Shown here: one piece after another, positions 3,921 to 35,746 of the stretch
Layout of the letters: each line of letters starts with the position of its first letter
Numbering within the stretch: position 1 is the stretch's first letter
Assembly (NCBI GenBank): GCA_964476825.1
Contig: CAYZCD010000002.1
Span: 1-42,059 of the forward strand
Direction: 5' to 3'
DNA: 42,059 nt
Origin: an uncultured archaeon
GTDB taxonomy: Archaea > Aenigmatarchaeota > Aenigmatarchaeia > JACPZZ01
Translations under genes and position numbers: made by a program
Notes under the pieces: model-generated
The model's input: only the letters and a program-made list of their open reading frames with translations
Told to the model about the DNA's origin: nothing
Database searches by the model: none

Positions 3921-4059
3921 AAATTCACTTTGTGGCTATAGAAACTGTAAATATATAAATGCTGTATCCACGAGTTGAATAAAAAGCAAAATTTCGTTTT
4001 ACTTGTTACAACCGACCTGACCGTTACGGTTATTTAAACATTACCCGATTTATTATTCA

Positions 4060-4365
4060 GTGATTGACATGGACGCAGTTTATTTCATTCCGAGGGACAA
4101 GTTTCAGGATGTGGAAAACGCATTGCTGAAAGACGATGTTCTATCGAGACAATCGCTGACGTTCAGGAATGCGGCCATTTTCGGATCCAAAGAGGATGTC
4201 GTGTGCGTGAAGATATCCGGATCAGACGAAGCGATGGAAAAGGCGAAAGAACTTGTGGGCGACAAAGGTAAACTAATCGAAGGCAAGGAAAAAGAAAAAA
4301 TTTTAAAACAGATTACCGAAGAAGAGGATGCCGTCGCGCAGGGCTTCGGAAGCATTTTCGAGTGA
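4060..4365 (+). CDS. small acidic protein with a ribosomal-stalk-like C-terminal tail
   Basis: 101-aa ORF with a GTG start in the track; ATG at 4069. The C-terminus is EEEDAVAQGFGSIFE. The stop overlaps the start of the next gene. Confidence 0.5.
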   Translation: MIDMDAVYFIPRDKFQDVENALLKDDVLSRQSLTFRNAAIFGSKEDVVCVKISGSDEAMEKAKELVGDKGKLIEGKEKEKILKQITEEEDAVAQGFGSIFE

Positions 4366-5369
4366 TATTTTTGAGGCGTTTGAAAAGGCTGTGGGATATA
4401 ATCAACGACAAAAATATCAAGATCGACTCAATTTTTCTGCCTAACGTGCCGGACGAAAATTTTTATTATCTAACCGGCTTGCAAGGCCCGTTCGAAGGGT
4501 GTTTTGCCATGCTTGACAAAAACGGCATGGAAATGGCTGTTTCGGAATTGGACTACGAAAATGCCAAAAAACAGGGCGTAAAGAAACCAAAACTAATAAC
4601 GAAACGCTCTGAAAAAATTGAAATGATAAAAAATTATGCGCCCAACGGCAGGTTGGGAGTCATCGCGAACAAACTTCCGTATCTGACCGGCAAACGGCTC
4701 GAATCTTTTGGGTTGAAGTTAATTGACGTGTCACAGTGTTTTGAAGATTGCAGAATGATAAAAGACGGCGACGAGATAAAACTGATAAAAACTGCAATCA
4801 ACGTAAGCAAAAACGCGCTTGAAGAATCAACCGGCGGTATGGCGATTGAAAATGACCTAGCCGTCAAAATCGAGACAGCTATCCGCGCAAAGGGATGCGA
4901 TATAGCCTTTCCGACAATATGCGCCGCGGACAAAAACTCCGCGTTGCCGCATTATACGACCGGGTTCCGAAAAATAAGCCAAATGGTTCTAATTGATTTC
5001 GGCGCGCGTTACAAAGGATATTGCGCTGATATCACCAGGTGCGTTTTCAAAAAGAAAAACGGTTGGTTTGCAAAAACAGAAAGTAATGTGATGAAGGCTT
5101 ATGGCAAATGTGTAGCGATAGCCAATGACAACGGAACGGGCGAGGATATGCAAAAAGCTGCGCAATCCGTCCTAGGTAAAGGGTTTATACATTCCATAGG
5201 GCATTTTCTCGGGCGCGACGTGCATGAAAATTCACTGAGTAATTTTAAGCGATCTTTTGAACCGGGCATGGTTTTCACAATAGAGCCGGGTTTTTATGAC
5301 GTGAAACGCGGCGGTGTCAGGTTCGAAAACGATTTTTTAATGACGAAGAACGGGTTAAAAGAACTCTAG
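4362..5369 (+). CDS. M24-family Xaa-Pro aminopeptidase
   Basis: Pita-bread metal-ligand context: DFGARYKGYCADITR, HSIGHFLGRDVHE, FTIEPGFY, RFENDF. Confidence 0.8.
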   Translation: MIFLRRLKRLWDIINDKNIKIDSIFLPNVPDENFYYLTGLQGPFEGCFAMLDKNGMEMAVSELDYENAKKQGVKKPKLITKRSEKIEMIKNYAPNGRLGVIANKLPYLTGKRLESFGLKLIDVSQCFEDCRMIKDGDEIKLIKTAINVSKNALEESTGGMAIENDLAVKIETAIRAKGCDIAFPTICAADKNSALPHYTTGFRKISQMVLIDFGARYKGYCADITRCVFKKKNGWFAKTESNVMKAYGKCVAIANDNGTGEDMQKAAQSVLGKGFIHSIGHFLGRDVHENSLSNFKRSFEPGMVFTIEPGFYDVKRGGVRFENDFLMTKNGLKEL

Positions 5370-5926
5370 AGCTTTTTCAGCCCGTCCCACCAAGATGTCG
5401 GGTCCATTTTTTCCAGCCTGTTGGCGAGATTTTTTGCGCTTTTTGTTTTCATCGCATTTTTGGCGTTCTTCATCCAGTCTGCCGTAGAATTAAAACCGAG
5501 CTCTTTATATTCCCTCGCCTGCACGAAAAGCTCGAGAAGGTCGGCGTCTTTTGCTATTATTGCTTCCCTGGTTTCCTTTTCGTCGTACTCCTCGACGATT
5601 TTAAGAAATTCGTTTTTGAATATACCCGACAAAATGTCTTCCGCGGCACGCCGTTCGCCCTTGTCTTCTATGTAGCGGTCGTTAACGCGGTTTACATCGC
5701 CCGTTCGTGTTTCCGCGAAATCGTGAAGCAAACACATCTTCACGACCTTGTTTTCATCAACGTTTTCCATTTTTGCAAGGACAATCCCTATCAAAGAAGC
5801 TCGCCAGGAATGTTCGGCAACGCTTTCTGCGTTTTTAACCCCCGCAAAAGACCATCCGCTGCGCGGCAACCGCTTCAGTTGGCCGGCCTCGAAAATCAGT
5901 TTTGACAGGCGTTCCAAATTATCCAT
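5366..5926 (-). CDS. HD-domain hydrolase (YfbR-like 5'-deoxynucleotidase family)
   Basis: VAEHSWR, LLHDFAETRTGD and KDADLLE motifs. Confidence 0.7.
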   Translation of the reverse strand: MDNLERLSKLIFEAGQLKRLPRSGWSFAGVKNAESVAEHSWRASLIGIVLAKMENVDENKVVKMCLLHDFAETRTGDVNRVNDRYIEDKGERRAAEDILSGIFKNEFLKIVEEYDEKETREAIIAKDADLLELFVQAREYKELGFNSTADWMKNAKNAMKTKSAKNLANRLEKMDPTSWWDGLKKL

Positions 5927-5996
5927 AAATTTAAAACACCTTCCCGGTTATTAAGCGTTACACCGAGCATTAAAATTTAACCTCCGAACTTAGTTC

Positions 5997-6620
5997 ATGA
6001 ATGATTGGGAAAAATTAAACAGAATAAAAGCAATTCTTTTCAATTCTTTCAGAGGTTCGTTGGAAAGCAGCCCGGTTGAACTCAAAAGAAATCATGGTAA
6101 ATTGTTTGACACGCTGCACAGCAAACTCGTCAGGAGCTGGGCCAGTCTCGAAAATCAGATGAGGCCAGACTTCATACCGATGGCAAGAGGGATTCTATAC
6201 GAGGTTCTTTTTTACTGTTCTTGCATGCGATTGAGAAGTTTTTTCATTTACAACAGCATGAAGTACAAGTTCGAAATATTCCCGTTTTATGACCTGAGCC
6301 CGAAAAGTGCCTCCAATGACGTCACGGATATGGGTTATATAAAGCCGGATTTTTTTTTTATTTATAGGGGAGACGGATTTTTTCCTCCGATGCTTGTGGA
6401 TGTGAAATCTTCCGAGAGGCCAGATAAACAAATATGGAAACAGGCTCGGCTGTCGATTAAACACGGTTTTCTGTATCAGATCGCATACCCAAAAACCAAA
6501 TATCCAAAATGCCTCGCCGATTGGAACATAAGGAACGTGTGTCCGCACTGCGGAAAGTTGAACGAGCTCACTTACTGCAAAGGATGCTACAATTACATAT
6601 TTTCCGATTTCGATAATTGA
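5997..6620 (+). CDS. putative PD-(D/E)xK nuclease with C-terminal zinc ribbon
   Basis: KPDFFF ... VDVKS fits the PD...(D/E)xK spacing. The C-terminus has CPHC ... CKGC. Ends 1 nt before a tRNA 3' fragment. Confidence 0.4.
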   Translation: MNDWEKLNRIKAILFNSFRGSLESSPVELKRNHGKLFDTLHSKLVRSWASLENQMRPDFIPMARGILYEVLFYCSCMRLRSFFIYNSMKYKFEIFPFYDLSPKSASNDVTDMGYIKPDFFFIYRGDGFFPPMLVDVKSSERPDKQIWKQARLSIKHGFLYQIAYPKTKYPKCLADWNIRNVCPHCGKLNELTYCKGCYNYIFSDFDN

Positions 6621-6621
6621 A

Positions 6622-6650
6622 TGCGGCCACCGGGATTCGAACCCGTGGTA
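6622..6650 (-). pseudogene. tRNA 3' fragment (T arm plus acceptor 3' strand)
   Basis: The minus strand reads CCACGGG-TTCGAAT-CCCGG-TGGCCGC-A. No anticodon arm can be folded from the AT-rich sequence upstream of it. Confidence 0.6.
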
Positions 6651-6679
6651 ATTATTAAATATATTTACCAAAGATTATC

Positions 6680-7423
6680 ATGGAAAGACTTACCATCAGG
6701 CAGAAAGATATAATAAATAAATTATATGATTCTGGTAAAAGCCTCAACTACTTAGCAACTCTGCTGGGCAAATCCAAAACTACGATTTATTACCATGCCC
6801 GTAAAAATTTCGGCACAAGAATGAAACCGATCGTGTTTAATATCAAGTCAAAAAAAGATTTTGGAGAATTTATCGGGGCGTTCGCAGGCGACGGGGGGTT
6901 TTATCTGGATAAAAAATATAGATATTTGATAAATTTTTATCTTTCCTCCAATGAAACAGCCTACGCCGAACATATTTCTAGAATTATCGGTGATACATTT
7001 GGTAAAAAACCAAACATTTTGTTGTACAGAAAAGTGAATATGATCAGAATAAGAGTGATGGGTAAGAGTATCCATGAAATTTTAAAAACTTATTTGTATT
7101 GGGGCAAAAATAAAACTCTTACCATCCGCCTGAGAAGAGCTTCGATGAAAATGGGAAACAACTTTTTGAAGGGGGTCGCCACCGGATTGATTGCGACCGA
7201 CGGATCTGTATACGTACCTAGAAAATGGATCTCTTTTGCTACAATTTCTAAAACATTATGCCTGCAACTTTCGGCGATTTTAAAGAAATTTGGTATAGGC
7301 AGCGCAATTTATCCGTCAAAATATAATGGAAAAAAGACTTTATACCAGCTACGTATAAAGGGTAAAAACAACCTAACAAATTTTGAGAAAAGGGTAGGTT
7401 TTAAAGAGCATCGTATGAAATAA
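6680..7423 (+). CDS. double-motif LAGLIDADG homing endonuclease with N-terminal HTH
   Basis: FIGAFAGDGGF and LKGVATGLIATDGSV are two LAGLIDADG motifs. HTH-like N-terminus. Very AT-rich gene. TATA-like TTAAATATATTTA lies 12-27 nt upstream of the ATG. Confidence 0.85.
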   Translation: MERLTIRQKDIINKLYDSGKSLNYLATLLGKSKTTIYYHARKNFGTRMKPIVFNIKSKKDFGEFIGAFAGDGGFYLDKKYRYLINFYLSSNETAYAEHISRIIGDTFGKKPNILLYRKVNMIRIRVMGKSIHEILKTYLYWGKNKTLTIRLRRASMKMGNNFLKGVATGLIATDGSVYVPRKWISFATISKTLCLQLSAILKKFGIGSAIYPSKYNGKKTLYQLRIKGKNNLTNFEKRVGFKEHRMK

Positions 7424-7443
7424 AAATTAGAGGTTATTCTGTA

Positions 7444-7516
7444 GCACCAGTAGTATAGCCTGGTAGGACATGAGCTTCCCAAGCTTATAGCCCGGGTTCA
7501 AATCCCGGCTGGTGCA
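7444..7516 (+). tRNA. tRNA-Gly (anticodon CCC)
   Basis: Acceptor GCACCAG/CTGGTGC, anticodon stem TGAGC/GCTTA, loop TTCCCAA, T arm CCGGG-TTCAAAT-CCCGG, discriminator A. No intron. Confidence 0.85.
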
Positions 7517-7531
7517 TTAGACCATGGCCGC
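7515..7531 (-). pseudogene. tRNA 5' fragment (acceptor 5' strand to D loop)
   Basis: The minus strand reads GCGGCCA-TG-GTCT-AATG. GCGGCCA is the exact complement of the TGGCCGC strand at 6623-6629. Overlaps the tRNA-Gly 3' end by 2 nt. Confidence 0.6.
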
Positions 7532-7573
7532 GCGGTTTTTATCAATGAGCCATTTAGATTAATATTGTTAGTT

Positions 7574-7714
7574 ATGGATTACCGCAAGATATTTTGTTTG
7601 GTGGGAGCCCATAAATGGGGAGTCAAAATCATACACCCAGCCATCGGTTCAAACGTGGCGGATTATTCTCAGGCGTGTAAAATGTGCGGAAAAACGAAAA
7701 GATGGGTTGAATGA
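7574..7714 (+). CDS. possible 46-aa zinc-ribbon-like peptide
   Basis: ATG at 7574 gives MDYRKIFCLVGAHKWG...CKMCGKTKRWVE, below the cutoff of the ORF track. Contains a Cys/His pair plus CxxC. Confidence 0.25.
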   Translation: MDYRKIFCLVGAHKWGVKIIHPAIGSNVADYSQACKMCGKTKRWVE

Positions 7715-7757
7715 GGGCCAAGACAAATTTATATTAGCCCAAACTGAATGTTATTAT

Positions 7758-8216
7758 ATGGTCTGGTTTGTAAGAAAGAAACTCGATGCGGCGCCAATTG
7801 AACCAAGCCTATCTATGGAAAGTGAACAGGTTTTGATGACGCCAGAACCGATGCCGAAGCCGGTGGTTGAAACGCCTGCGATGCGAGAAGCCCCACTGTT
7901 TATCAAAGTCGACCGTTACAAGGAAATGCTTTCTTATTTCGGAGCCTTGAAAAACGACATAGAGACGTTGCGGCAGTTAAGCTCGGTTTTAAACAGCACC
8001 CAGGAAATGTTCATGGAAACGAACAAAGCGATAAGTTCTACTCTGGAAAGAACGGATAAGATATTGGAATCGCTGGACTCGGAAATGGGGCGCCCGGCCG
8101 GTTTGAACATAAACATGGACGCAGAGGCCAAGCGGGCGGAAATGAAGGTTTCTTTAAACGAACTGAAAAACCAGCTCGAAAAGCTGAAAAGCGAAGTAAA
8201 GGCTATTTCTGCCTAA
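7758..8216 (+). CDS. coiled-coil protein, unknown function
   Basis: The track ORF starts at TTG 7707. The first ATG is at 7758, preceded by AAATTTATATTA 14-25 nt upstream. The C-terminal half has heptad-like repeats. Confidence 0.55.
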   Translation: MVWFVRKKLDAAPIEPSLSMESEQVLMTPEPMPKPVVETPAMREAPLFIKVDRYKEMLSYFGALKNDIETLRQLSSVLNSTQEMFMETNKAISSTLERTDKILESLDSEMGRPAGLNINMDAEAKRAEMKVSLNELKNQLEKLKSEVKAISA

Positions 8217-8256
8217 GCTATTAATATTTCTGAACAAAACAGATTCTAAGTAAACT

Positions 8257-8288
8257 GAATCATACCGATACAAAATACGGTATGATTT
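8257..8288. repeat. tRNA-associated hairpin family, copy H2
   Basis: GAATCATACCG / CGGTATGATTT gives 10 bp plus one G.T pair. Loop is ATACAAAATA. 5' flank AACT, and the 3' flank TAGTT abuts tRNA-Leu directly. A collapsed CTGAAC..GATTCTAAGT relic lies at 8230-8251. Confidence 0.8.
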
Positions 8289-8324
8289 TAGTTGCGGGGG
8301 TAGCCAAGCCCGGTCAAGGAACCA

Positions 8325-8348
8325 GAAGCATATCTGCTGATATGCTTC
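8325..8348. repeat. hairpin family copy H3, inside the tRNA-Leu D-loop intron
   Basis: GAAGCATAT / ATATGCTTC is 9 bp perfect, with loop CTGCTG. Enclosed by AACC (8320-8323) and GGTT (8354-8357). Confidence 0.7.
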
Positions 8349-8400
8349 AGTCGGTTCGACTTGAGTGATGAGGTTAAGCAAACTGGCGCAACAACAAACT

Positions 8401-8421
8401 GACACATACATGGTATGTGTC
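8401..8421. repeat. hairpin family copy H4, inside the tRNA-Leu D-loop intron
   Basis: CT-GACACATAC / GTATGTGTC-TGGTT is 9 bp with loop ATG. The flanks mirror the family CTGA...T(A/G)GTT pattern. Confidence 0.6.
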
Positions 8422-8638
8422 TGGTTGCAATGCGTCTGTCTGAACAACCAATGACTAGAGGCGTCAGACTCAAGTAAGCTTTCCCAGAAAGAAAGCCTAA
8501 GCAAAGAAGGGAAATCTGATCTCCTAGCGAGTTCGTCGGTTCAAATCCGGCCCCCCGCACTTTCTTTTCACTAAAAAAGCCATATTTAAACCTTGCAGAA
8601 ACTCATTATTCATACAAACTTTTTGAAAACGTGGTTTC

Positions 8639-11187: not shown

Positions 11188-13281
11188 ATGAGGAAGGATT
11201 TTTTTATCGGAATAGCCACATTTGCCGTAATATTTTCTTTCCTGTTCACACATTTTAAACCCGACTTGGTTTTTTCAGATACAACCATCACCGGAGGCGA
11301 TACGGGGTCGCACAATTACCTTTTTTATTACATGAAAAGCAGCCTTCTGCCAAAACTGGAATTAACGGGCTGGAGCCCGGACTGGTATTTGGGATTTCCA
11401 ATATTCCAGTTTTATTTTCCCATTCCGTATGCTTTAGGTTCCATACTTTCCAATTTTGTACACGCTAACATTGCAGTGAAAATAATCACACTCCTGGGAA
11501 CTTTCATGCTGCCCGCCGCCGCGTATTTTGCGATGAAGGCGCTGGAATTCGAGGAGCCGGCCCCGTGCATCGCCGCTTTCCTTTCCCTCATTTTCCTTTT
11601 CATCGAATCCAATTCGGTTTGGGGAGGCAACATACCCAGCACGCTTTCGGGCGAGTTTGCGTACAGCATCAGCTTTGCCATGGCATTTTTCTTTATCCCA
11701 TCGGTATACGCCTCGCTTTCGAAGGGGAAATACGAGATTAAAAATTCCTTGCTGTTTTCCCTTGTTGTTTTAACCCACGTTTACACAGCAATATTCTCGG
11801 TCGCAGCCTCTTTCCTGGCACTAATGTGCGCCGATAAAACTAAAACGAAAGAAAGTGTTTTAGTTCTTACGAAAACTTACCTGGTGTCCGCATTTCTGGT
11901 CGGTTTCTGGGCTCTTCCGCTCGTTAACGACATACACTTCAAGACAGACTTCGGTTACAGATGGACGATAGAAAGCATGTCCACCATATTCCCGGCGATT
12001 TATTTCCCTATAATTATATTTTCCATTCTAGGAATAAAAAACGGCGCAACCAAAAAAGATGCGCGGGTCCTGTTCTTAATTTACACCATGTTATTAGCCG
12101 CGATTCTATACCTGGCTTCGCAGTTCATCGGGCTTGTTGATGTAAGATTCCTCCCCTTCCTGCAATTCGCCGGAGTATTATTGGGCGCGTACGGATTTTC
12201 CCAAATCATTAAAAAAATCAAACCGCAGGGCGCAGGCGTGATAATTGCAGGGCTCCTGACAATATTGTGGGTCAACAACAGCATTTCCTACATAGACGGG
12301 TGGATAGACTGGAATTACAGCGGGTTTGAATCGAAGAACTCGTGGACGCAGTTCAGTGAAATAAATGATTTTCTTAAAAATCTACCTTACGGCAGGATGT
12401 TCCACGAATATTCGCCGTCGCATTCAAAATTCGGCACGCCGCGAGCCTTTGAGCTGTTGCCGATGTTTACAGGCAAGCCCGTAATAGAAGGATTGACCAT
12501 AGAATCCGGTTTATTGGCTCCGTTTACGTTTTACCTGCAGTCCGAGCTTTCCGAATCCCCCACGTGTCCGATTCCGGGATTAAAATGCTCATATTTTGAC
12601 GCAATAAACGGCACGGAACACCTGAAATTGTTCGGTATAAAGTATGTGATAGCCACGTCGGACAAATTAAAAAATTCGCTGGATGGCATAGCACAATACC
12701 AAAAATTAAAATATTTTGGTGACATATCCGTGTACGAATTGGGCGGCACGAGTTATGCGTCCGTGCCTAAATACGAACCTGTGGCCGTGATAACCAACGA
12801 CTGGCGCAACGCTTCCATGTCATGGTTCAAAAACACTGATATGCTCGATGTGCCGCTGGTCTTCGTTGGAGAGCGGGACAAAAGGTTTTCCCAGACGATT
12901 TACGGCTATGATCCGCTTAAAATAAAAAAAATCCCGGCGGAAAACAACTGTTCAGTAAACGAAACTTTTGGGAACGAAAGCCTTAAAATAAATACTTCGT
13001 GCGTTGGAAAGCCATTGCTGGTTAAGATTCCGTATTTTCCGGACTGGTCTGTCATTGGCGCGGATAAAATTTATCTCGCATCCCCCGGATTCATGCTTAT
13101 TTTTCCGCTGCAGCCGGAAGTAGAATTAAAATATGGTTCTACAACGAACTTGGTTGGAAACGCGCTTACAATATCCGGGCTGGTTTTCACCGGAGTATAT
13201 TTATTTTCTCCCGTATTTAGAAAAAAGTTTCAACACTATGGCAACGGCAAGCATGTTAGCAAGCATAGAAGGTATGTTTAG
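11188..13281 (+). CDS. large polytopic membrane protein, possibly a GT-C-type glycosyltransferase
   Basis: 697 aa with more than 10 predicted TM segments in the N-terminal two thirds and a soluble C-terminal domain. Lies next to a GT2 gene. Function is inferred from architecture only. Confidence 0.4.
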   Translation: MRKDFFIGIATFAVIFSFLFTHFKPDLVFSDTTITGGDTGSHNYLFYYMKSSLLPKLELTGWSPDWYLGFPIFQFYFPIPYALGSILSNFVHANIAVKIITLLGTFMLPAAAYFAMKALEFEEPAPCIAAFLSLIFLFIESNSVWGGNIPSTLSGEFAYSISFAMAFFFIPSVYASLSKGKYEIKNSLLFSLVVLTHVYTAIFSVAASFLALMCADKTKTKESVLVLTKTYLVSAFLVGFWALPLVNDIHFKTDFGYRWTIESMSTIFPAIYFPIIIFSILGIKNGATKKDARVLFLIYTMLLAAILYLASQFIGLVDVRFLPFLQFAGVLLGAYGFSQIIKKIKPQGAGVIIAGLLTILWVNNSISYIDGWIDWNYSGFESKNSWTQFSEINDFLKNLPYGRMFHEYSPSHSKFGTPRAFELLPMFTGKPVIEGLTIESGLLAPFTFYLQSELSESPTCPIPGLKCSYFDAINGTEHLKLFGIKYVIATSDKLKNSLDGIAQYQKLKYFGDISVYELGGTSYASVPKYEPVAVITNDWRNASMSWFKNTDMLDVPLVFVGERDKRFSQTIYGYDPLKIKKIPAENNCSVNETFGNESLKINTSCVGKPLLVKIPYFPDWSVIGADKIYLASPGFMLIFPLQPEVELKYGSTTNLVGNALTISGLVFTGVYLFSPVFRKKFQHYGNGKHVSKHRRYV

Positions 13282-20583: not shown

Positions 20584-20696
20584 GGGTCCGTAGCTCAGCC
20601 TGGACAGAGCAGCAGCCTCCTATCCGTGAGAAAACCTATACGGTTGTATTGCGGCGAGATAGTTGAAGGTCGCGGGTTCAAATCCCGTCGGATCCG
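20584..20696 (+). tRNA. tRNA-Arg (anticodon CCT) with canonical 38-nt intron
   Basis: Acceptor GGGTCCG/CGGATCC, which includes a G3.T70 pair, and D stem GCTC/GAGC. BHB: GCAGC|CTCC|TAT|CCGT paired with GCGG|CGAG|ATA|GTTGA. Intron is 20623-20660. T arm GCGGG-TTCAAAT-CCCGT, discriminator G. Confidence 0.7.
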
Positions 20697-31178: not shown

Positions 31179-31278
31179 GCCGAGGTCGCATAATCTGGTG
31201 GTGCACTGGTCTCGAATTTAGATGGAACAGAAAACCAGCGGGCGCAAGCCTATAAGGGTTCAAATCCCTTCCTCGGCG
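31179..31278 (+). tRNA. tRNA-Ser (anticodon CGA) with 16-nt intron
   Basis: Acceptor GCCGAGG/CCTCGGC, anticodon stem CTGGT/ACCAG, loop CTCGAA|intron 31217-31232|A. Long variable arm CGGGCGCAAGCCTAT. T arm AAGGG-TTCAAAT-CCCTT, discriminator G. TATA-like ATTTAAATAAAA at -33 to -22. Confidence 0.75.
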
Positions 31279-34579: not shown

Positions 34580-34693
34580 GGGTCCATTGTCTAACGGTAG
34601 GACGCCACCCTCACATGACCTTTTAAAAAGAGTGCTCAGCCAAAGAACGGTTTGGGATCGGTGGAGACGAGAGTTCAATTCTCTCTGGACCCA
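34580..34693 (+). tRNA. tRNA-Val (anticodon CAC) with canonical 43-nt intron
   Basis: Acceptor GGGTCCA/TGGACCC. BHB: CCACC|CTCA|CAT|GACC paired with GGTT|TGGG|ATC|GGTGG. Intron is 34616-34658. T arm GAGAG-TTCAATT-CTCTC, discriminator A. Confidence 0.85.
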
Positions 34694-35622: not shown

Positions 35623-35746
35623 GGGCCGGTAGATCAACGGTAGATCGCCACATTGGCATAAGCTTTTCCAAAAAGCTTAACCAAAAGAGGATGGTAAAGA
35701 CTTACCAAATTTGTGGAGGCTTCGGGTTCGAATCCCGACCGGTCCA
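35623..35746 (+). tRNA. tRNA-Ala (anticodon GGC) with canonical 52-nt intron
   Basis: Acceptor GGGCCGG/CCGGTCC with G3.T70. Anticodon stem CCACA/TGTGG, loop TTGGCA|intron 35659-35710|T. Central helix TTGG/CCAA with 3' bulge ATT. T arm TCGGG-TTCGAAT-CCCGA, discriminator A. Confidence 0.85.

What the first reader, a model, noticed from the sequence alone, without database searches (positions are those of the whole stretch)
6622..7531. Two halves of a minus-strand tRNA lie ~870 bp apart, flanking a LAGLIDADG endonuclease gene and an intact opposite-strand tRNA-Gly
On the minus strand, 7531-7515 reads GCGGCCA-TG-GTCT-AATG, which is the acceptor 5' strand through the D loop. 6650-6622 reads CCACGGG-TTCGAAT-CCCGG-TGGCCGC-A, which is the T arm, acceptor 3' strand and discriminator. 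The two acceptor strands are perfectly complementary over 7 of 7 positions.

Between them, on the plus strand, lie a very AT-rich double-motif LAGLIDADG gene with its own TATA-like box, and a complete tRNA-Gly(CCC). The 3' end of that tRNA overlaps the 5' fragment by 2 nt. I cannot find an anticodon arm for the split tRNA.

The break is in the D loop, the same region as the large tRNA-Leu intron.

Possible readings:
- A homing-endonuclease cassette inserted into, and partly replaced, a tRNA gene while bringing a substitute tRNA.
- A highly unusual giant-intron or split tRNA.
Basis: partly seen in the sequence, partly recalled or inferred. Interest (0 to 1): 0.75.

Follow-up and report, generated by a model that had tools for sequence, protein, structure and literature searches.

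The report
Endonuclease cassette replaced a tRNA gene
The two tRNA pieces are the leftover ends of this archaeon's own tRNA-Gly(CCC) gene, whose middle was replaced by a horizontally moving cassette carrying a LAGLIDADG homing endonuclease and a spare tRNA-Gly(CCC); related cassettes sit in broken tRNA genes of many other DPANN archaea and, in one case tested here, brought a new intron into the tRNA.

Summary
The window comes from a Candidatus Aenigmarchaeota (DPANN) chromosome.

Seven relatives carry an intact minus-strand tRNA-Gly(CCC) gene with an intron at this locus. In the nearest relative, L008, both flanks align right up to the junctions. In the window, 869 bp (6646-7514) replace the 63 bp that hold tRNA positions about 18-49 plus the intron. 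The insert consists of a TATA-like box, an HTH+LAGLIDADG endonuclease gene and an intronless, inverted tRNA-Gly(CCC).

The split-tRNA and giant-intron readings are rejected. There is no anticodon arm, a working isoacceptor lies between the pieces, and the pieces decay or disappear in relatives.

The unit running from fragment to fragment is mobile. Against a distant relative (L001) it is 87.6% identical with dS 0.58, while the flanking genes are 67-72% identical with dS from 1.6 to saturated. Sister genomes of both carriers have the intact gene.

The same logic recurs in about 25 distant homologue loci. An orphan tRNA 3' module, broken at the 5' edge of the T stem, lies upstream of the endonuclease gene, and an intact tRNA lies just downstream.

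A second empty-site test, on tRNA-Glu(CUC), shows that the cassette delivered a replacement 3' module carrying a T-loop intron.

Endonuclease activity and its target site are inferred, not shown.

The parts
6622..6646 (-). Orphan 3' module of the resident tRNA-Gly(CCC) gene: discriminator A, 3' acceptor strand TGGCCGC and the T arm. Homology with the intact gene ends at 6645, which is tRNA position 50.
   Evidence: Identical to L016 5025-5048 and 2 mismatches from L008 5671-5694. The blastn match with L008 ends at 6645. It has 0 mismatches with L001, although dS in the adjacent ORF is 0.58.
6647..6679 (+). Left end of the cassette: an AT-rich leader with a TATA-like box (about 6651-6666) directly abutting the T-stem stub. 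This is the presumed promoter of the endonuclease gene.
   Evidence: There is 1 mismatch in 58 nt (6622-6679) against L001. The same pairing of a T-stem stub with a TTTATATA-like box is seen in L027, L028, L029, L031, L035, L043, L044 and L046. Promoter function is inferred.
6680..7423 (+). Free-standing homing-endonuclease gene of 247 aa: an N-terminal HTH_38 domain plus a double-motif LAGLIDADG domain (GAFAGDGG and GLIATDGS).
   Evidence: Pfam. Both motifs and their acidic residues are conserved in homologues of 37-86% identity. The AF2 model is low confidence (pLDDT 57.7) but has a 2x alpha-beta-beta-alpha-beta-beta-alpha topology. Foldseek top hits are all LAGLIDADG enzymes (7qsu E 7e-9, PI-PfuI, I-DmoI). 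dN/dS against L001 is 0.12.
7444..7516 (+). Spare, intronless tRNA-Gly(CCC) carried by the cassette, inverted relative to the gene it replaced. The D stem has a C12-to-A change at 7455.
   Evidence: ARAGORN. Rfam 58 bits, against 66 bits for the L001 copy, which has GTCT.
7515..7531 (-). Orphan 5' stub of the resident tRNA-Gly(CCC) gene (positions 1-17: acceptor strand, U8, G9, the D-stem 5' strand and the start of the D loop). It is joined to the spare tRNA through a 2-nt TG microhomology.
   Evidence: Identical to L016 5117-5133. The blastn match with L008 resumes at 7515. The same junction is seen in L001 and L013.
7532..7575 (-). Retained upstream (promoter) region of the gutted minus-strand tRNA gene.
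   Evidence: It is colinear and near-identical with the region upstream of the intact tRNA in L008. It is part of the 91% match 7515-8263. Whether it still has promoter activity was not tested.

Best explanation
The two fragments are relics of the organism's own tRNA-Gly(CCC) gene. That gene lay on the minus strand and had an intron at position 37/38. Its interior (positions about 18-49 plus the intron, 63 bp in the nearest relative) was replaced by an 869-bp selfish cassette. The cassette consists of a TATA-like promoter, a free-standing HTH+LAGLIDADG homing-endonuclease gene, and a complete intronless tRNA-Gly(CCC) that takes over decoding.

Shown:
- the replacement, its exact junctions and its neutrality for the tRNA set;
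- horizontal spread of the whole unit from stub to stub;
- purifying selection on the endonuclease gene;
- recurrence of the same design in many tRNA genes of other DPANN archaea.

Inferred:
- The enzyme cuts endonuclease-free alleles of the tRNA gene near the 5' edge of the T stem (position about 48/49).
- The break is repaired by copying the cassette from an incoming endonuclease-positive allele, with the retained tRNA ends and flanks serving as homology.
- The spare tRNA escapes cutting because its sequence around that site differs. In other family members the escape would come from an intron interrupting the site.
- Once the cassette is fixed, the endonuclease gene and the stubs decay, while the spare tRNA is kept.
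For: 1. Empty-site alleles.
- The intact minus-strand tRNA-Gly(CCC) gene, with 33-58-nt introns at 37/38, is present in L008, L016, L012, L018 and L021. It is also present in L010 and L011, where the intron lies in the anticodon stem.
- The window aligns with L008 up to 6645 and again from 7515. L008 positions 5695-5757 are the missing part.

2. Horizontal transfer.
- Window 6621-7532 matches L001 9942-10853 at 87.6% identity, and the match ends at the outer ends of the stubs. Flanking genes are 67-72% identical.
- Amino-acid identity is 86% for the endonuclease, against 51-72% for M24, HD, ORF169 and Nop5.
- dS is 0.58 for the endonuclease, against 1.6 to saturated for the flanking genes.
- The sisters of both carriers (L008 and L016 for the window; L021 for L001, whose flanks are 80-83% identical to L001's) have the intact gene.

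3. The endonuclease looks functional.
- Both catalytic motifs are kept.
- dN/dS is 0.12.
- The predicted fold is LAGLIDADG.

4. Decay series.
- L013 keeps the plus-strand tRNA and the 5' stub with the same junction, but has no endonuclease gene. L009 keeps only the plus-strand tRNA.

5. Family-wide pattern.
- 24 of 27 assessable homologue loci have a tRNA gene within about 150 nt downstream of the endonuclease gene.
- 11 loci have a clear orphan 3' module broken at the T-stem edge upstream of the gene.
- L024 and L025 show 3' stub A, endonuclease gene, whole tRNA-Gly(CCC) B, then the 5' part of A.

6. Second empty-site test.
- L028 carries the endonuclease gene. L048 and L051 lack it and have an intronless tRNA-Glu(CUC).
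- The orphan in L028 is the resident 3' module, still attached to its old flank.
- The in-use 3' module, which has a T-loop intron, came with the cassette.
Against: - No cleavage activity or target site has been demonstrated.
- The spare tRNA's 3' half differs from resident alleles at only about 2-6 positions around 48/49, so its immunity is unexplained.
- The stubs are only 17 and 25 nt long. The left flanks of the window and L001 are unrelated genes (ORF207 versus an epimerase), so the homology available for repair is very short.
- The inverted orientation of the spare tRNA has no mechanistic explanation.
- The DNA transfer route between DPANN cells is unknown. No relatives were found on IMG/VR viral contigs.
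- The structural model is of low confidence (pLDDT 57.7).
Confidence: 0.82

Rival explanations
1. A functional split or giant-intron tRNA. The two pieces would be transcribed from the minus strand and joined, in cis across an 865-nt intron or in trans with a third piece encoded elsewhere, as in Nanoarchaeum or Caldivirga.
For: - The acceptor complementarity is 7/7 and the upstream promoter region is retained.
- The organism does carry tRNAs with large and non-canonical introns, for example tRNA-Leu at 8294-8559.
- The 3' stub is perfectly conserved between the window and L001.
Against: - There is no D-stem 3' strand, anticodon arm or variable loop anywhere between the pieces.
- An intact tRNA with the same anticodon sits between them.
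- Relatives show the uninterrupted gene at the same place.
- The 5' stub has 3 changes in L001, including one in the D stem.
- L013 keeps only one stub and L009 keeps none.
Confidence: 0.02
2. Remnant of integrase-mediated integration. A virus or plasmid would have integrated into the tRNA gene and then been largely deleted, with the endonuclease gene a passenger that played no part.
For: - Archaeal integrative elements target tRNA genes, carry a copy of part of the tRNA and leave fragments (established knowledge; Caldiarchaeum case, PMC3293823).
- The left flank of the tRNA is variable among relatives: ORF207, an epimerase or another gene.
Against: - No integrase or recombinase lies in or next to the 869-bp insert.
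- The stubs are not direct-repeat duplicates of a segment of an intact gene.
- The only protein gene that recurs beside orphan tRNA modules in about 25 independent loci, in tRNAs of several identities, is this endonuclease. It is always in the same orientation and 33-159 nt from the T-stem stub.
Confidence: 0.06
3. Vertical inheritance. The cassette would be ancient in this clade and simply better conserved than its neighbours, and the intact genes in sister genomes would be the result of loss.
For: - The cassette tRNA and the endonuclease gene are under purifying selection (dN/dS 0.12).
- The junction on the 5' stub is identical in the window, L001 and L013, which suggests a single origin for the chimera.
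Against: - Synonymous divergence of the endonuclease gene (0.58) is far below that of every flanking gene (1.6 to saturated).
- A deleted interior with a lineage-specific intron cannot be regenerated by loss of the cassette.
- Carriers are nested among non-carriers in two separate sub-clades.
Confidence: 0.05
4. The LAGLIDADG protein is a domesticated DNA-binding factor, like WhiA, or a maturase that acts on the neighbouring tRNA gene or its transcript. On this view it is not a mobility nuclease, and the cassette spreads by ordinary recombination.
For: - The protein has an extra HTH domain. WhiA structures are among the Foldseek hits.
- Selection on the protein is purifying.
- The protein is always adjacent to a tRNA gene.
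Against: - Both LAGLIDADG acidic residues are conserved across 30-86% identity. From my own knowledge, not tested here, WhiA lacks these residues.
- The presence/absence polymorphism, the horizontal transfer and the target gene broken at a fixed position are the signature of homing.
Confidence: 0.1

Closest known systems
Free-standing homing endonucleases with 'intronless homing' or localized marker exclusion in T4-like phages (SegB in the tRNA gene cluster, SegF, MobE)
   Same: - The endonuclease gene is not inside an intron or intein.
- It lies next to or within tRNA genes.
- It spreads by replacing the endonuclease-free allele together with adjacent sequence.
- Its presence or absence varies among relatives.
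(PMC2988022, PMC2790892 and PMC13096335 were listed; the details come from my own knowledge.)
   Different: - The enzymes here are LAGLIDADG with an HTH domain, not GIY-YIG or HNH.
- The hosts are archaeal chromosomes, not phages.
- The target gene is physically gutted and a spare copy, or a spare 3' module, is supplied by the cassette.
- Stubs of the target remain.
tRNA gene disruption by a mobile element in Caldiarchaeum subterraneum (Sugahara et al. 2012, PMC3293823)
   Same: - Alleles differ within related archaeal genomes.
- A tRNA fragment lies next to an inserted element.
- A replacement tRNA gene carries an extra intron.
- That paper proposes that mobile elements drive intron gain and the scattering of tRNA fragments.
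   Different: - That element is 1.8 kb and encodes a DNA recombinase, with pNOB8-like composition.
- Here the only gene is a LAGLIDADG endonuclease.
- Here the junction is fixed at the T-stem edge across many tRNA identities.
Integrase-type viruses and plasmids that integrate into archaeal tRNA genes (SSV- and pNOB8-type)
   Same: The element carries a copy of part of the tRNA, so the gene stays functional, and a displaced partial copy remains. This matches the type-1 loci such as L028.
   Different: - There is no tyrosine recombinase.
- The cassette is under 1 kb.
- In the window the whole tRNA is replaced and inverted.
LAGLIDADG endonucleases encoded in archaeal bulge-helix-bulge introns and inteins (I-DmoI, I-Tsp061I, PI-PfuI)
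   Same: - The fold family is the same.
- NCBIfam hits are to intein-containing proteins.
- The hosts are archaeal.
- The element disrupts its own target site.
   Different: - The ORF is not inside a spliced element.
- It lies antisense to the broken tRNA and has its own promoter.
- Harmlessness comes from a spare gene, not from splicing.
Split and tri-split tRNA genes (Nanoarchaeum equitans, Caldivirga maquilingensis; PMC3218864, PMC4033280)
   Same: tRNA gene pieces with complementary acceptor strands lie apart in an archaeal genome.
   Different: The pieces here do not add up to a tRNA, have no complementary leaders and are decaying relics.
'Fractured genes' with a free-standing endonuclease between the gene halves (Dassa et al. 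2009, PMC2677866)
   Same: A free-standing homing-endonuclease gene sits between two parts of the gene it invaded (abstract).
   Different: There the halves are rejoined by split inteins at the protein level. Here the broken gene is dead and a substitute is supplied.

Membership tests
LAGLIDADG homing endonuclease (protein family) | Two LAGLIDADG motifs, each with a conserved acidic residue | tested here: met
   GAFAGDGG (D71) and GLIATDGS (D174). Both are conserved in P0002-P0004, with E in one sequence. Pfam LAGLIDADG_3 scores 8e-17.
LAGLIDADG homing endonuclease (protein family) | Pseudo-dimeric alpha-beta-beta-alpha-beta-beta-alpha fold | tested here: met
   The secondary-structure order in the AF2 model fits. 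Foldseek hits are to I-DmoI, PI-PfuI, PI-SceI and the TliVMA endonuclease. Model confidence is low (pLDDT 57.7).
LAGLIDADG homing endonuclease (protein family) | Site-specific double-strand cleavage of a long target | not testable with these tools
   This needs biochemistry.
Free-standing homing-endonuclease cassette (homing without an intron or intein) | Presence/absence polymorphism at the same locus in related genomes, with precise junctions | tested here: met
   The window and L001 carry the cassette. L008, L016, L012, L018, L021, L010 and L011 have the intact gene. A second case is L028 against L048 and L051.
Free-standing homing-endonuclease cassette (homing without an intron or intein) | The cassette is more similar between genomes than its flanks (horizontal spread) | tested here: met
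   87.6% against 67-72% nucleotide identity. dS is 0.58 against 1.6 to saturated.
Free-standing homing-endonuclease cassette (homing without an intron or intein) | The endonuclease is not part of a spliced element | tested here: met
   The ORF is antisense to the broken tRNA. The exons do not reconstitute a tRNA. The ORF has its own TATA-like box.
Free-standing homing-endonuclease cassette (homing without an intron or intein) | The enzyme cuts the cassette-free allele, and the cassette-bearing allele is immune | not testable with these tools
   This is inferred only from the conserved junction at the T-stem edge, and from the introns or substitutions near it in the cassette-linked tRNAs.
Split or trans-spliced archaeal tRNA | The pieces together encode a complete cloverleaf including the anticodon | tested here: not met
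   Positions about 18-49 are absent. There is no minus-strand tRNA hit at E<=10. Comparison with the intact gene shows what is missing.
Split or trans-spliced archaeal tRNA | The pieces are conserved as functional units in relatives | tested here: not met
   The 5' stub has 3 of 17 bases changed in L001. There is one stub in L013 and none in L009.
Bulge-helix-bulge intron carrying an endonuclease ORF (I-DmoI type) | Removing the insert restores a contiguous functional RNA | tested here: not met
   Joining 7515 to 6646 gives a 42-nt RNA without an anticodon arm.
Integrase-mediated tRNA-gene integration | A tyrosine or serine recombinase gene in the element | tested here: not met
   The only ORF with a family hit in 6646-7514 is the LAGLIDADG gene.
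Integrase-mediated tRNA-gene integration | A direct-repeat duplicate of a tRNA segment at the two ends of the element | tested here: not met
   In the window the two stubs are different parts of one tRNA. In type-1 loci such as L028 the T-arm module is duplicated, which resembles att duplication.

The most novel reading that the evidence does not exclude
These HTH-LAGLIDADG cassettes may be a general, previously undescribed driver of tRNA gene disruption and non-canonical intron gain in DPANN archaea.

The proposed mechanism is as follows. The enzyme recognises the variable-loop/T-arm region of a tRNA gene and inserts at position about 48/49. The cassette supplies a replacement 3' module or a whole tRNA. 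The target site in that replacement is broken by a bulge-helix-bulge intron in the T loop, the T stem or the variable region. The intron thus acts as the immunity determinant and spreads with the endonuclease.

Supporting observations:
- The replacement 3' module in L028 carries a T-loop intron that is absent from the cassette-free alleles L048 and L051.
- 8 distinct cassette-linked tRNAs have inserts within or next to the T arm.
- The T-loop inserts share a hairpin whose stem sequence differs between loci while remaining paired, and an exon UUCA / intron UGAA pairing (plus reading of the sequences).

This would be a concrete mechanism behind the Randau-Soll idea that tRNA gene fragmentation is tied to mobile elements.
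Probability: 0.45. Interest if true: 0.85.

Novelty: new variant of a known kind. Interest (0 to 1): 0.7.

Why it matters
How archaeal tRNA genes acquire odd introns, fragments and splits is a long-standing open question. The only mechanistic model with population evidence involves a recombinase-bearing element (PMC3293823).

Here a different agent, a free-standing LAGLIDADG homing endonuclease, is caught with both filled and empty alleles in two different tRNA genes. It guts one gene and supplies a spare. It replaces the 3' module of the other with an intron-bearing copy.

This gives directly testable predictions:
- cleavage at the T-stem edge of cassette-free alleles;
- immunity of the intron-bearing or spare alleles.

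It also explains orphan tRNA fragments that confuse annotation of DPANN genomes. In addition, it points to a natural set of nucleases that may target conserved tRNA gene sequences.

Tried and rejected
- ARAGORN and Rfam at gathering threshold find no minus-strand tRNA at the site. A permissive Rfam scan (E<=10) gave only spurious plastid-UTR hits on the T-arm stub.
- An exact look-up of the window's endonuclease protein found nothing on record.
- A sequence search of the PDB gave nothing significant.
- A scan of IMG/VR viral contigs with the endonuclease alignment found no relatives.
- The AF2 model was of low confidence and was used only for topology and fold family.
- The idea that the plus-strand tRNA is an inverted copy of the resident gene was rejected. 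Its acceptor stem (GCACCAG) and D arm differ, and it has no intron.
- A simple co-conversion reading of the acceptor-stem types could not be sustained. The window has GCGGCCA/TGGCCGC, its nearest relative has GCGGTTA/TAACCGC, and L001 is mixed. L021, the sister of L001, is of the GCGGCCA type. I leave it as "mosaic ends, unexplained".
- L049 and L050, which are HerA relatives of L028, have no tRNA downstream because synteny is broken there, so they were uninformative.
- Six of the literature searches found no description of LAGLIDADG cassettes in archaeal tRNA genes. The library lacks most subscription journals, so absence is not proof.
Full report
**What is in the window**

The window is a piece of an archaeal chromosome. 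It carries tRNAs with 37/38 introns and a Nop5-fibrillarin operon. Homologues of the neighbouring ORF169 are all from Candidatus Aenigmarchaeota groundwater genomes.

- The minus strand 7531-7515 is GCGGCCA-TG-GTCT-AATG.
- The minus strand 6646-6622 is ACGGG-TTCGAAT-CCCGG-TGGCCGC-A.
- The acceptor strands pair 7/7.
- Each piece is unique in the window and not expected by chance.

Between the pieces lie two genes.
- A 247-aa ORF at 6680-7423(+) has Pfam HTH_38 and LAGLIDADG_3 domains.
- tRNA-Gly(CCC) lies at 7444-7516(+). Its last two bases overlap the 5' piece.

No anticodon arm for the minus-strand pieces exists. No minus-strand tRNA is found even at a permissive threshold.

**The uninterrupted gene in relatives**

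I used ORF169, the gene next to the 5' piece, as a handle and fetched syntenic loci from eight species-representative genomes. Three more came from look-ups of exact proteins.

Seven relatives carry an intact minus-strand tRNA-Gly(CCC) gene at this place.
- L008, L016, L012, L018 and L021 have 33-58-nt introns at position 37/38 (Rfam 52-58 bits; ARAGORN with introns; sequences).
- L010 and L011 have, by my reading, a roughly 20-nt intron inside the anticodon stem.

The acceptor stems covary among these genes: GCGGCCA/TGGCCGC or GCGGTTA/TAACCGC. The gene in L016 has ends identical to both window pieces.

In L008 (ORF169 96% identical, Nop5 91%) both flanks are colinear with the window right up to the junctions.
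- Window 4051-6645 aligns with L008 3088-5694 (81%).
- Window 7515-8263 aligns with L008 5758-6506 (91%).

So window 6646-7514 (869 bp) replaces L008 5695-5757 (63 bp). That stretch is tRNA positions about 18-49 plus the intron.

The gutted gene and the tRNA in the insert have the same anticodon. The insertion therefore costs the cell no decoding capacity.

**The split or giant-intron tRNA reading is rejected**

- The two stubs cannot make a tRNA.
- A distant relative, L001, has the same architecture, but its 5' stub has drifted to GCGGTTATGGCCTAATG.
- L013 keeps the plus-strand tRNA followed by the 5' stub at the same TG-microhomology junction. It has no endonuclease gene and no 3' stub.
- L009 keeps only the plus-strand tRNA.

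This is the decay series expected for relics and for a homing-endonuclease gene after fixation.

**The unit is mobile**

The evidence comes from comparing the window with L001.
- Flanking genes are 67-72% identical in DNA. Window 6621-7532 matches L001 9942-10853 at 87.6%. The match begins and ends at the outer ends of the two stubs.
- At the protein level the endonuclease is 86% identical. M24 peptidase is 61%, HD 72%, ORF169 51% and Nop5 70%.
- Synonymous divergence is 0.58 for the endonuclease gene. It is 1.6, 2.9 or saturated for the four flanking genes.
- The closest relatives of each carrier have the intact gene: L008 and L016 for the window, and L021 for L001 (its flanks are 80-83% identical to L001's).

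A deleted interior with a lineage-specific intron cannot reappear by loss of the cassette. So at least one horizontal transfer of the stub-to-stub unit is required.

The endonuclease gene is under purifying selection (dN/dS 0.12). Both LAGLIDADG acidic residues are conserved.

A low-confidence AF2 model (pLDDT 57.7) shows the expected arrangement of an HTH followed by two alpha-beta-beta-alpha-beta-beta-alpha units. By Foldseek it matches only LAGLIDADG proteins, including the TliVMA intein endonuclease, PI-PfuI, I-DmoI, PI-SceI and WhiA.

The 58 nt from the 3' stub to the start codon differ at one base between the window and L001. That is far fewer differences than the synonymous divergence predicts. 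Possible reasons are promoter function, or repeated resetting of this arm by recombination with conserved resident tRNA genes. I cannot tell which.

**The same design elsewhere**

A scan of metagenome contigs with an alignment of four endonucleases returned 26 loci with homologues of 30-42% identity. These add to L006 and L007.

In 24 of 27 loci with enough sequence, a tRNA gene lies within about 150 nt downstream of the endonuclease gene, on either strand. The tRNAs are Gly(CCC), Gly(UCC), Gly(GCC), Glu(CUC), Pro(UGG), Pro(GGG), His and Asn.

In 11 distinct loci an orphan minus-strand 3' module (T arm, 3' acceptor strand and discriminator) lies 33-159 nt upstream of the start codon.
- It is broken at the 5' edge of the T stem.
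- In most of these loci a TATA-like box abuts it directly.
- The loci are the window, L001, L024, L025, L027, L028, L035, L039, L041, L043 and L044.
- Degenerate traces are seen in L029, L031/L033, L038 and L046.

L024 and L025 show the window's logic with the spare in the other orientation. The order is 3' stub of tRNA-Gly(CCC) A, endonuclease gene, complete tRNA-Gly(CCC) B, then the 5' part of A up to its anticodon loop.

**A second empty-site test**

In L028 the endonuclease gene is followed by a minus-strand tRNA-Glu(CUC) whose T loop holds a roughly 17-nt insert. An orphan intronless T-arm module precedes the gene.

I used the neighbouring HerA-like gene to find relatives. This gave cassette-free loci L048 (HerA 94% identical) and L051/L052 (81%), each with an intronless tRNA-Glu(CUC).
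- L028 3825-3765 matches L051 4596-4656.
- L028 2967-2905, which is the orphan plus its flank, matches L051 4646-4706.

Three conclusions follow.
- The orphan is the resident 3' module, still joined to its old downstream flank.
- The 5' two-thirds of the working tRNA is resident.
- The working 3' module, with a different T stem and the T-loop insert, arrived with the cassette.

The insertion point is again the 5' edge of the T stem.

Eight distinct cassette-linked tRNAs have inserts in the T loop, the T stem or the variable region next to it: L007, L027, L028, L029, L031/L033, L035, L041 and L043.

The T-loop inserts share a hairpin followed by TGAAAT. The hairpin stem sequence differs between loci but remains paired. 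The pre-tRNAs fold as cloverleaves with the T stem closed around the insert. By reading, exon UUCA can pair with intron UGAA to give a 4-bp helix between two short bulges, which is a bulge-helix-bulge-like motif. Splicing itself is inferred.

**Mechanism**

Shown:
- the replacement;
- its junctions;
- horizontal spread;
- selection on the protein;
- recurrence of the design;
- delivery of an intron-bearing module in one case.

Inferred:
- The enzyme cuts cassette-free tRNA genes around position 48/49.
- Repair copies the cassette from an incoming allele, with the tRNA ends and flanks as homology.
- The cassette-linked tRNA is immune because the site is altered or interrupted.
- After fixation the endonuclease gene and stubs decay.

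Weak points:
- No activity data exist.
- The homology arms are very short (17 and 25 nt), and the left flanks of the window and L001 are unrelated.
- The spare tRNA's 3' half is close to resident sequences.
- The inversion of the spare in the window type is unexplained.
- The transfer route is unknown, and there are no relatives on viral contigs.

**Comparison with known systems**

- In logic, the closest are free-standing phage endonucleases that spread by intronless homing, including SegB in the T4 tRNA cluster.
- In effect, the closest are mobile elements that integrate into archaeal tRNA genes while supplying a replacement part. The Caldiarchaeum tRNA-Thr case is one, where a recombinase element left a fragment and a tRNA with an extra intron (PMC3293823).
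- The protein belongs to the LAGLIDADG family known from archaeal introns and inteins. Here, however, it is not inside a spliced element.

I found no description of such cassettes in archaeal tRNA genes in the searchable literature. That library is incomplete.

I rate the finding a new variant of a known kind.

Noticed in passing
window 8294-8559 (+): A tRNA-Leu(CAA) gene that neither ARAGORN nor Rfam at gathering threshold reports. By reading it has three exons: GCGGGGGTAGCCAAGCCCGGTCAA, then an intron of about 142 nt in the D loop, then GGCGTCAGACTCAAG, then an intron of about 39 nt at 37/38, then ATCTGATCTCCTAGCGAGTTCGTCGGTTCAAATCCGGCCCCCCGCA. The same gene, with a differently sized first intron, is in L001 at about 11698-11905.
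   Followed up: partly
window 5997-6620 (+): ORF207 ends 1 nt before the tRNA 3' stub. It is present only in the window and L008. Other relatives have an epimerase or another gene at this position, so the 3' flank of this tRNA gene is a variable spot. There are no Pfam or NCBIfam hits. By eye it has a PD-(D/E)xK-like 'LVDVKS' motif and a C-terminal CxxC...CxxC, so it could be another nuclease.
   Followed up: partly
window 7455 (+): The spare tRNA-Gly(CCC) has A at position 12 (D stem GTAT...GGAC), which breaks a pair that is intact (GTCT) in L001. Rfam scores are 58 against 66 bits. This may be slight degeneration of the only tRNA-Gly(CCC) seen in the window.
   Followed up: no
window 20584-20696, 31179-31278, 34580-34693, 35623-35746 (+): Four more tRNA genes with 37/38 introns of about 30-55 nt. 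Rfam finds them and default ARAGORN does not.
   Followed up: no
window 7565-7714 (+): A small ORF of 49 aa with a CKMCGK motif lies between the 5' stub and ORF169. The region is conserved in L008 but absent in L001. No family hits.
   Followed up: no
L010 5889-5799 and L011 5921-5831 (-): The resident tRNA-Gly(CCC) of these relatives appears to carry its intron inside the anticodon stem (about position 29/30) instead of at 37/38. ARAGORN miscalls it as Leu(tag) or as a stop-anticodon tRNA.
   Followed up: partly
L001 18481-20774 (-): The isoleucyl-tRNA synthetase of this relative carries an intein (Pfam Intein_splicing). This is another selfish element in the same genomes.
   Followed up: no
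L007, L029, L031, L043 (tRNAs next to the endonuclease gene): Besides T-loop inserts, these tRNAs have 15-20 extra nucleotides in the variable region immediately 5' of the T stem, and some have D-loop inserts. This amounts to up to three non-canonical introns in one tRNA.
   Followed up: partly
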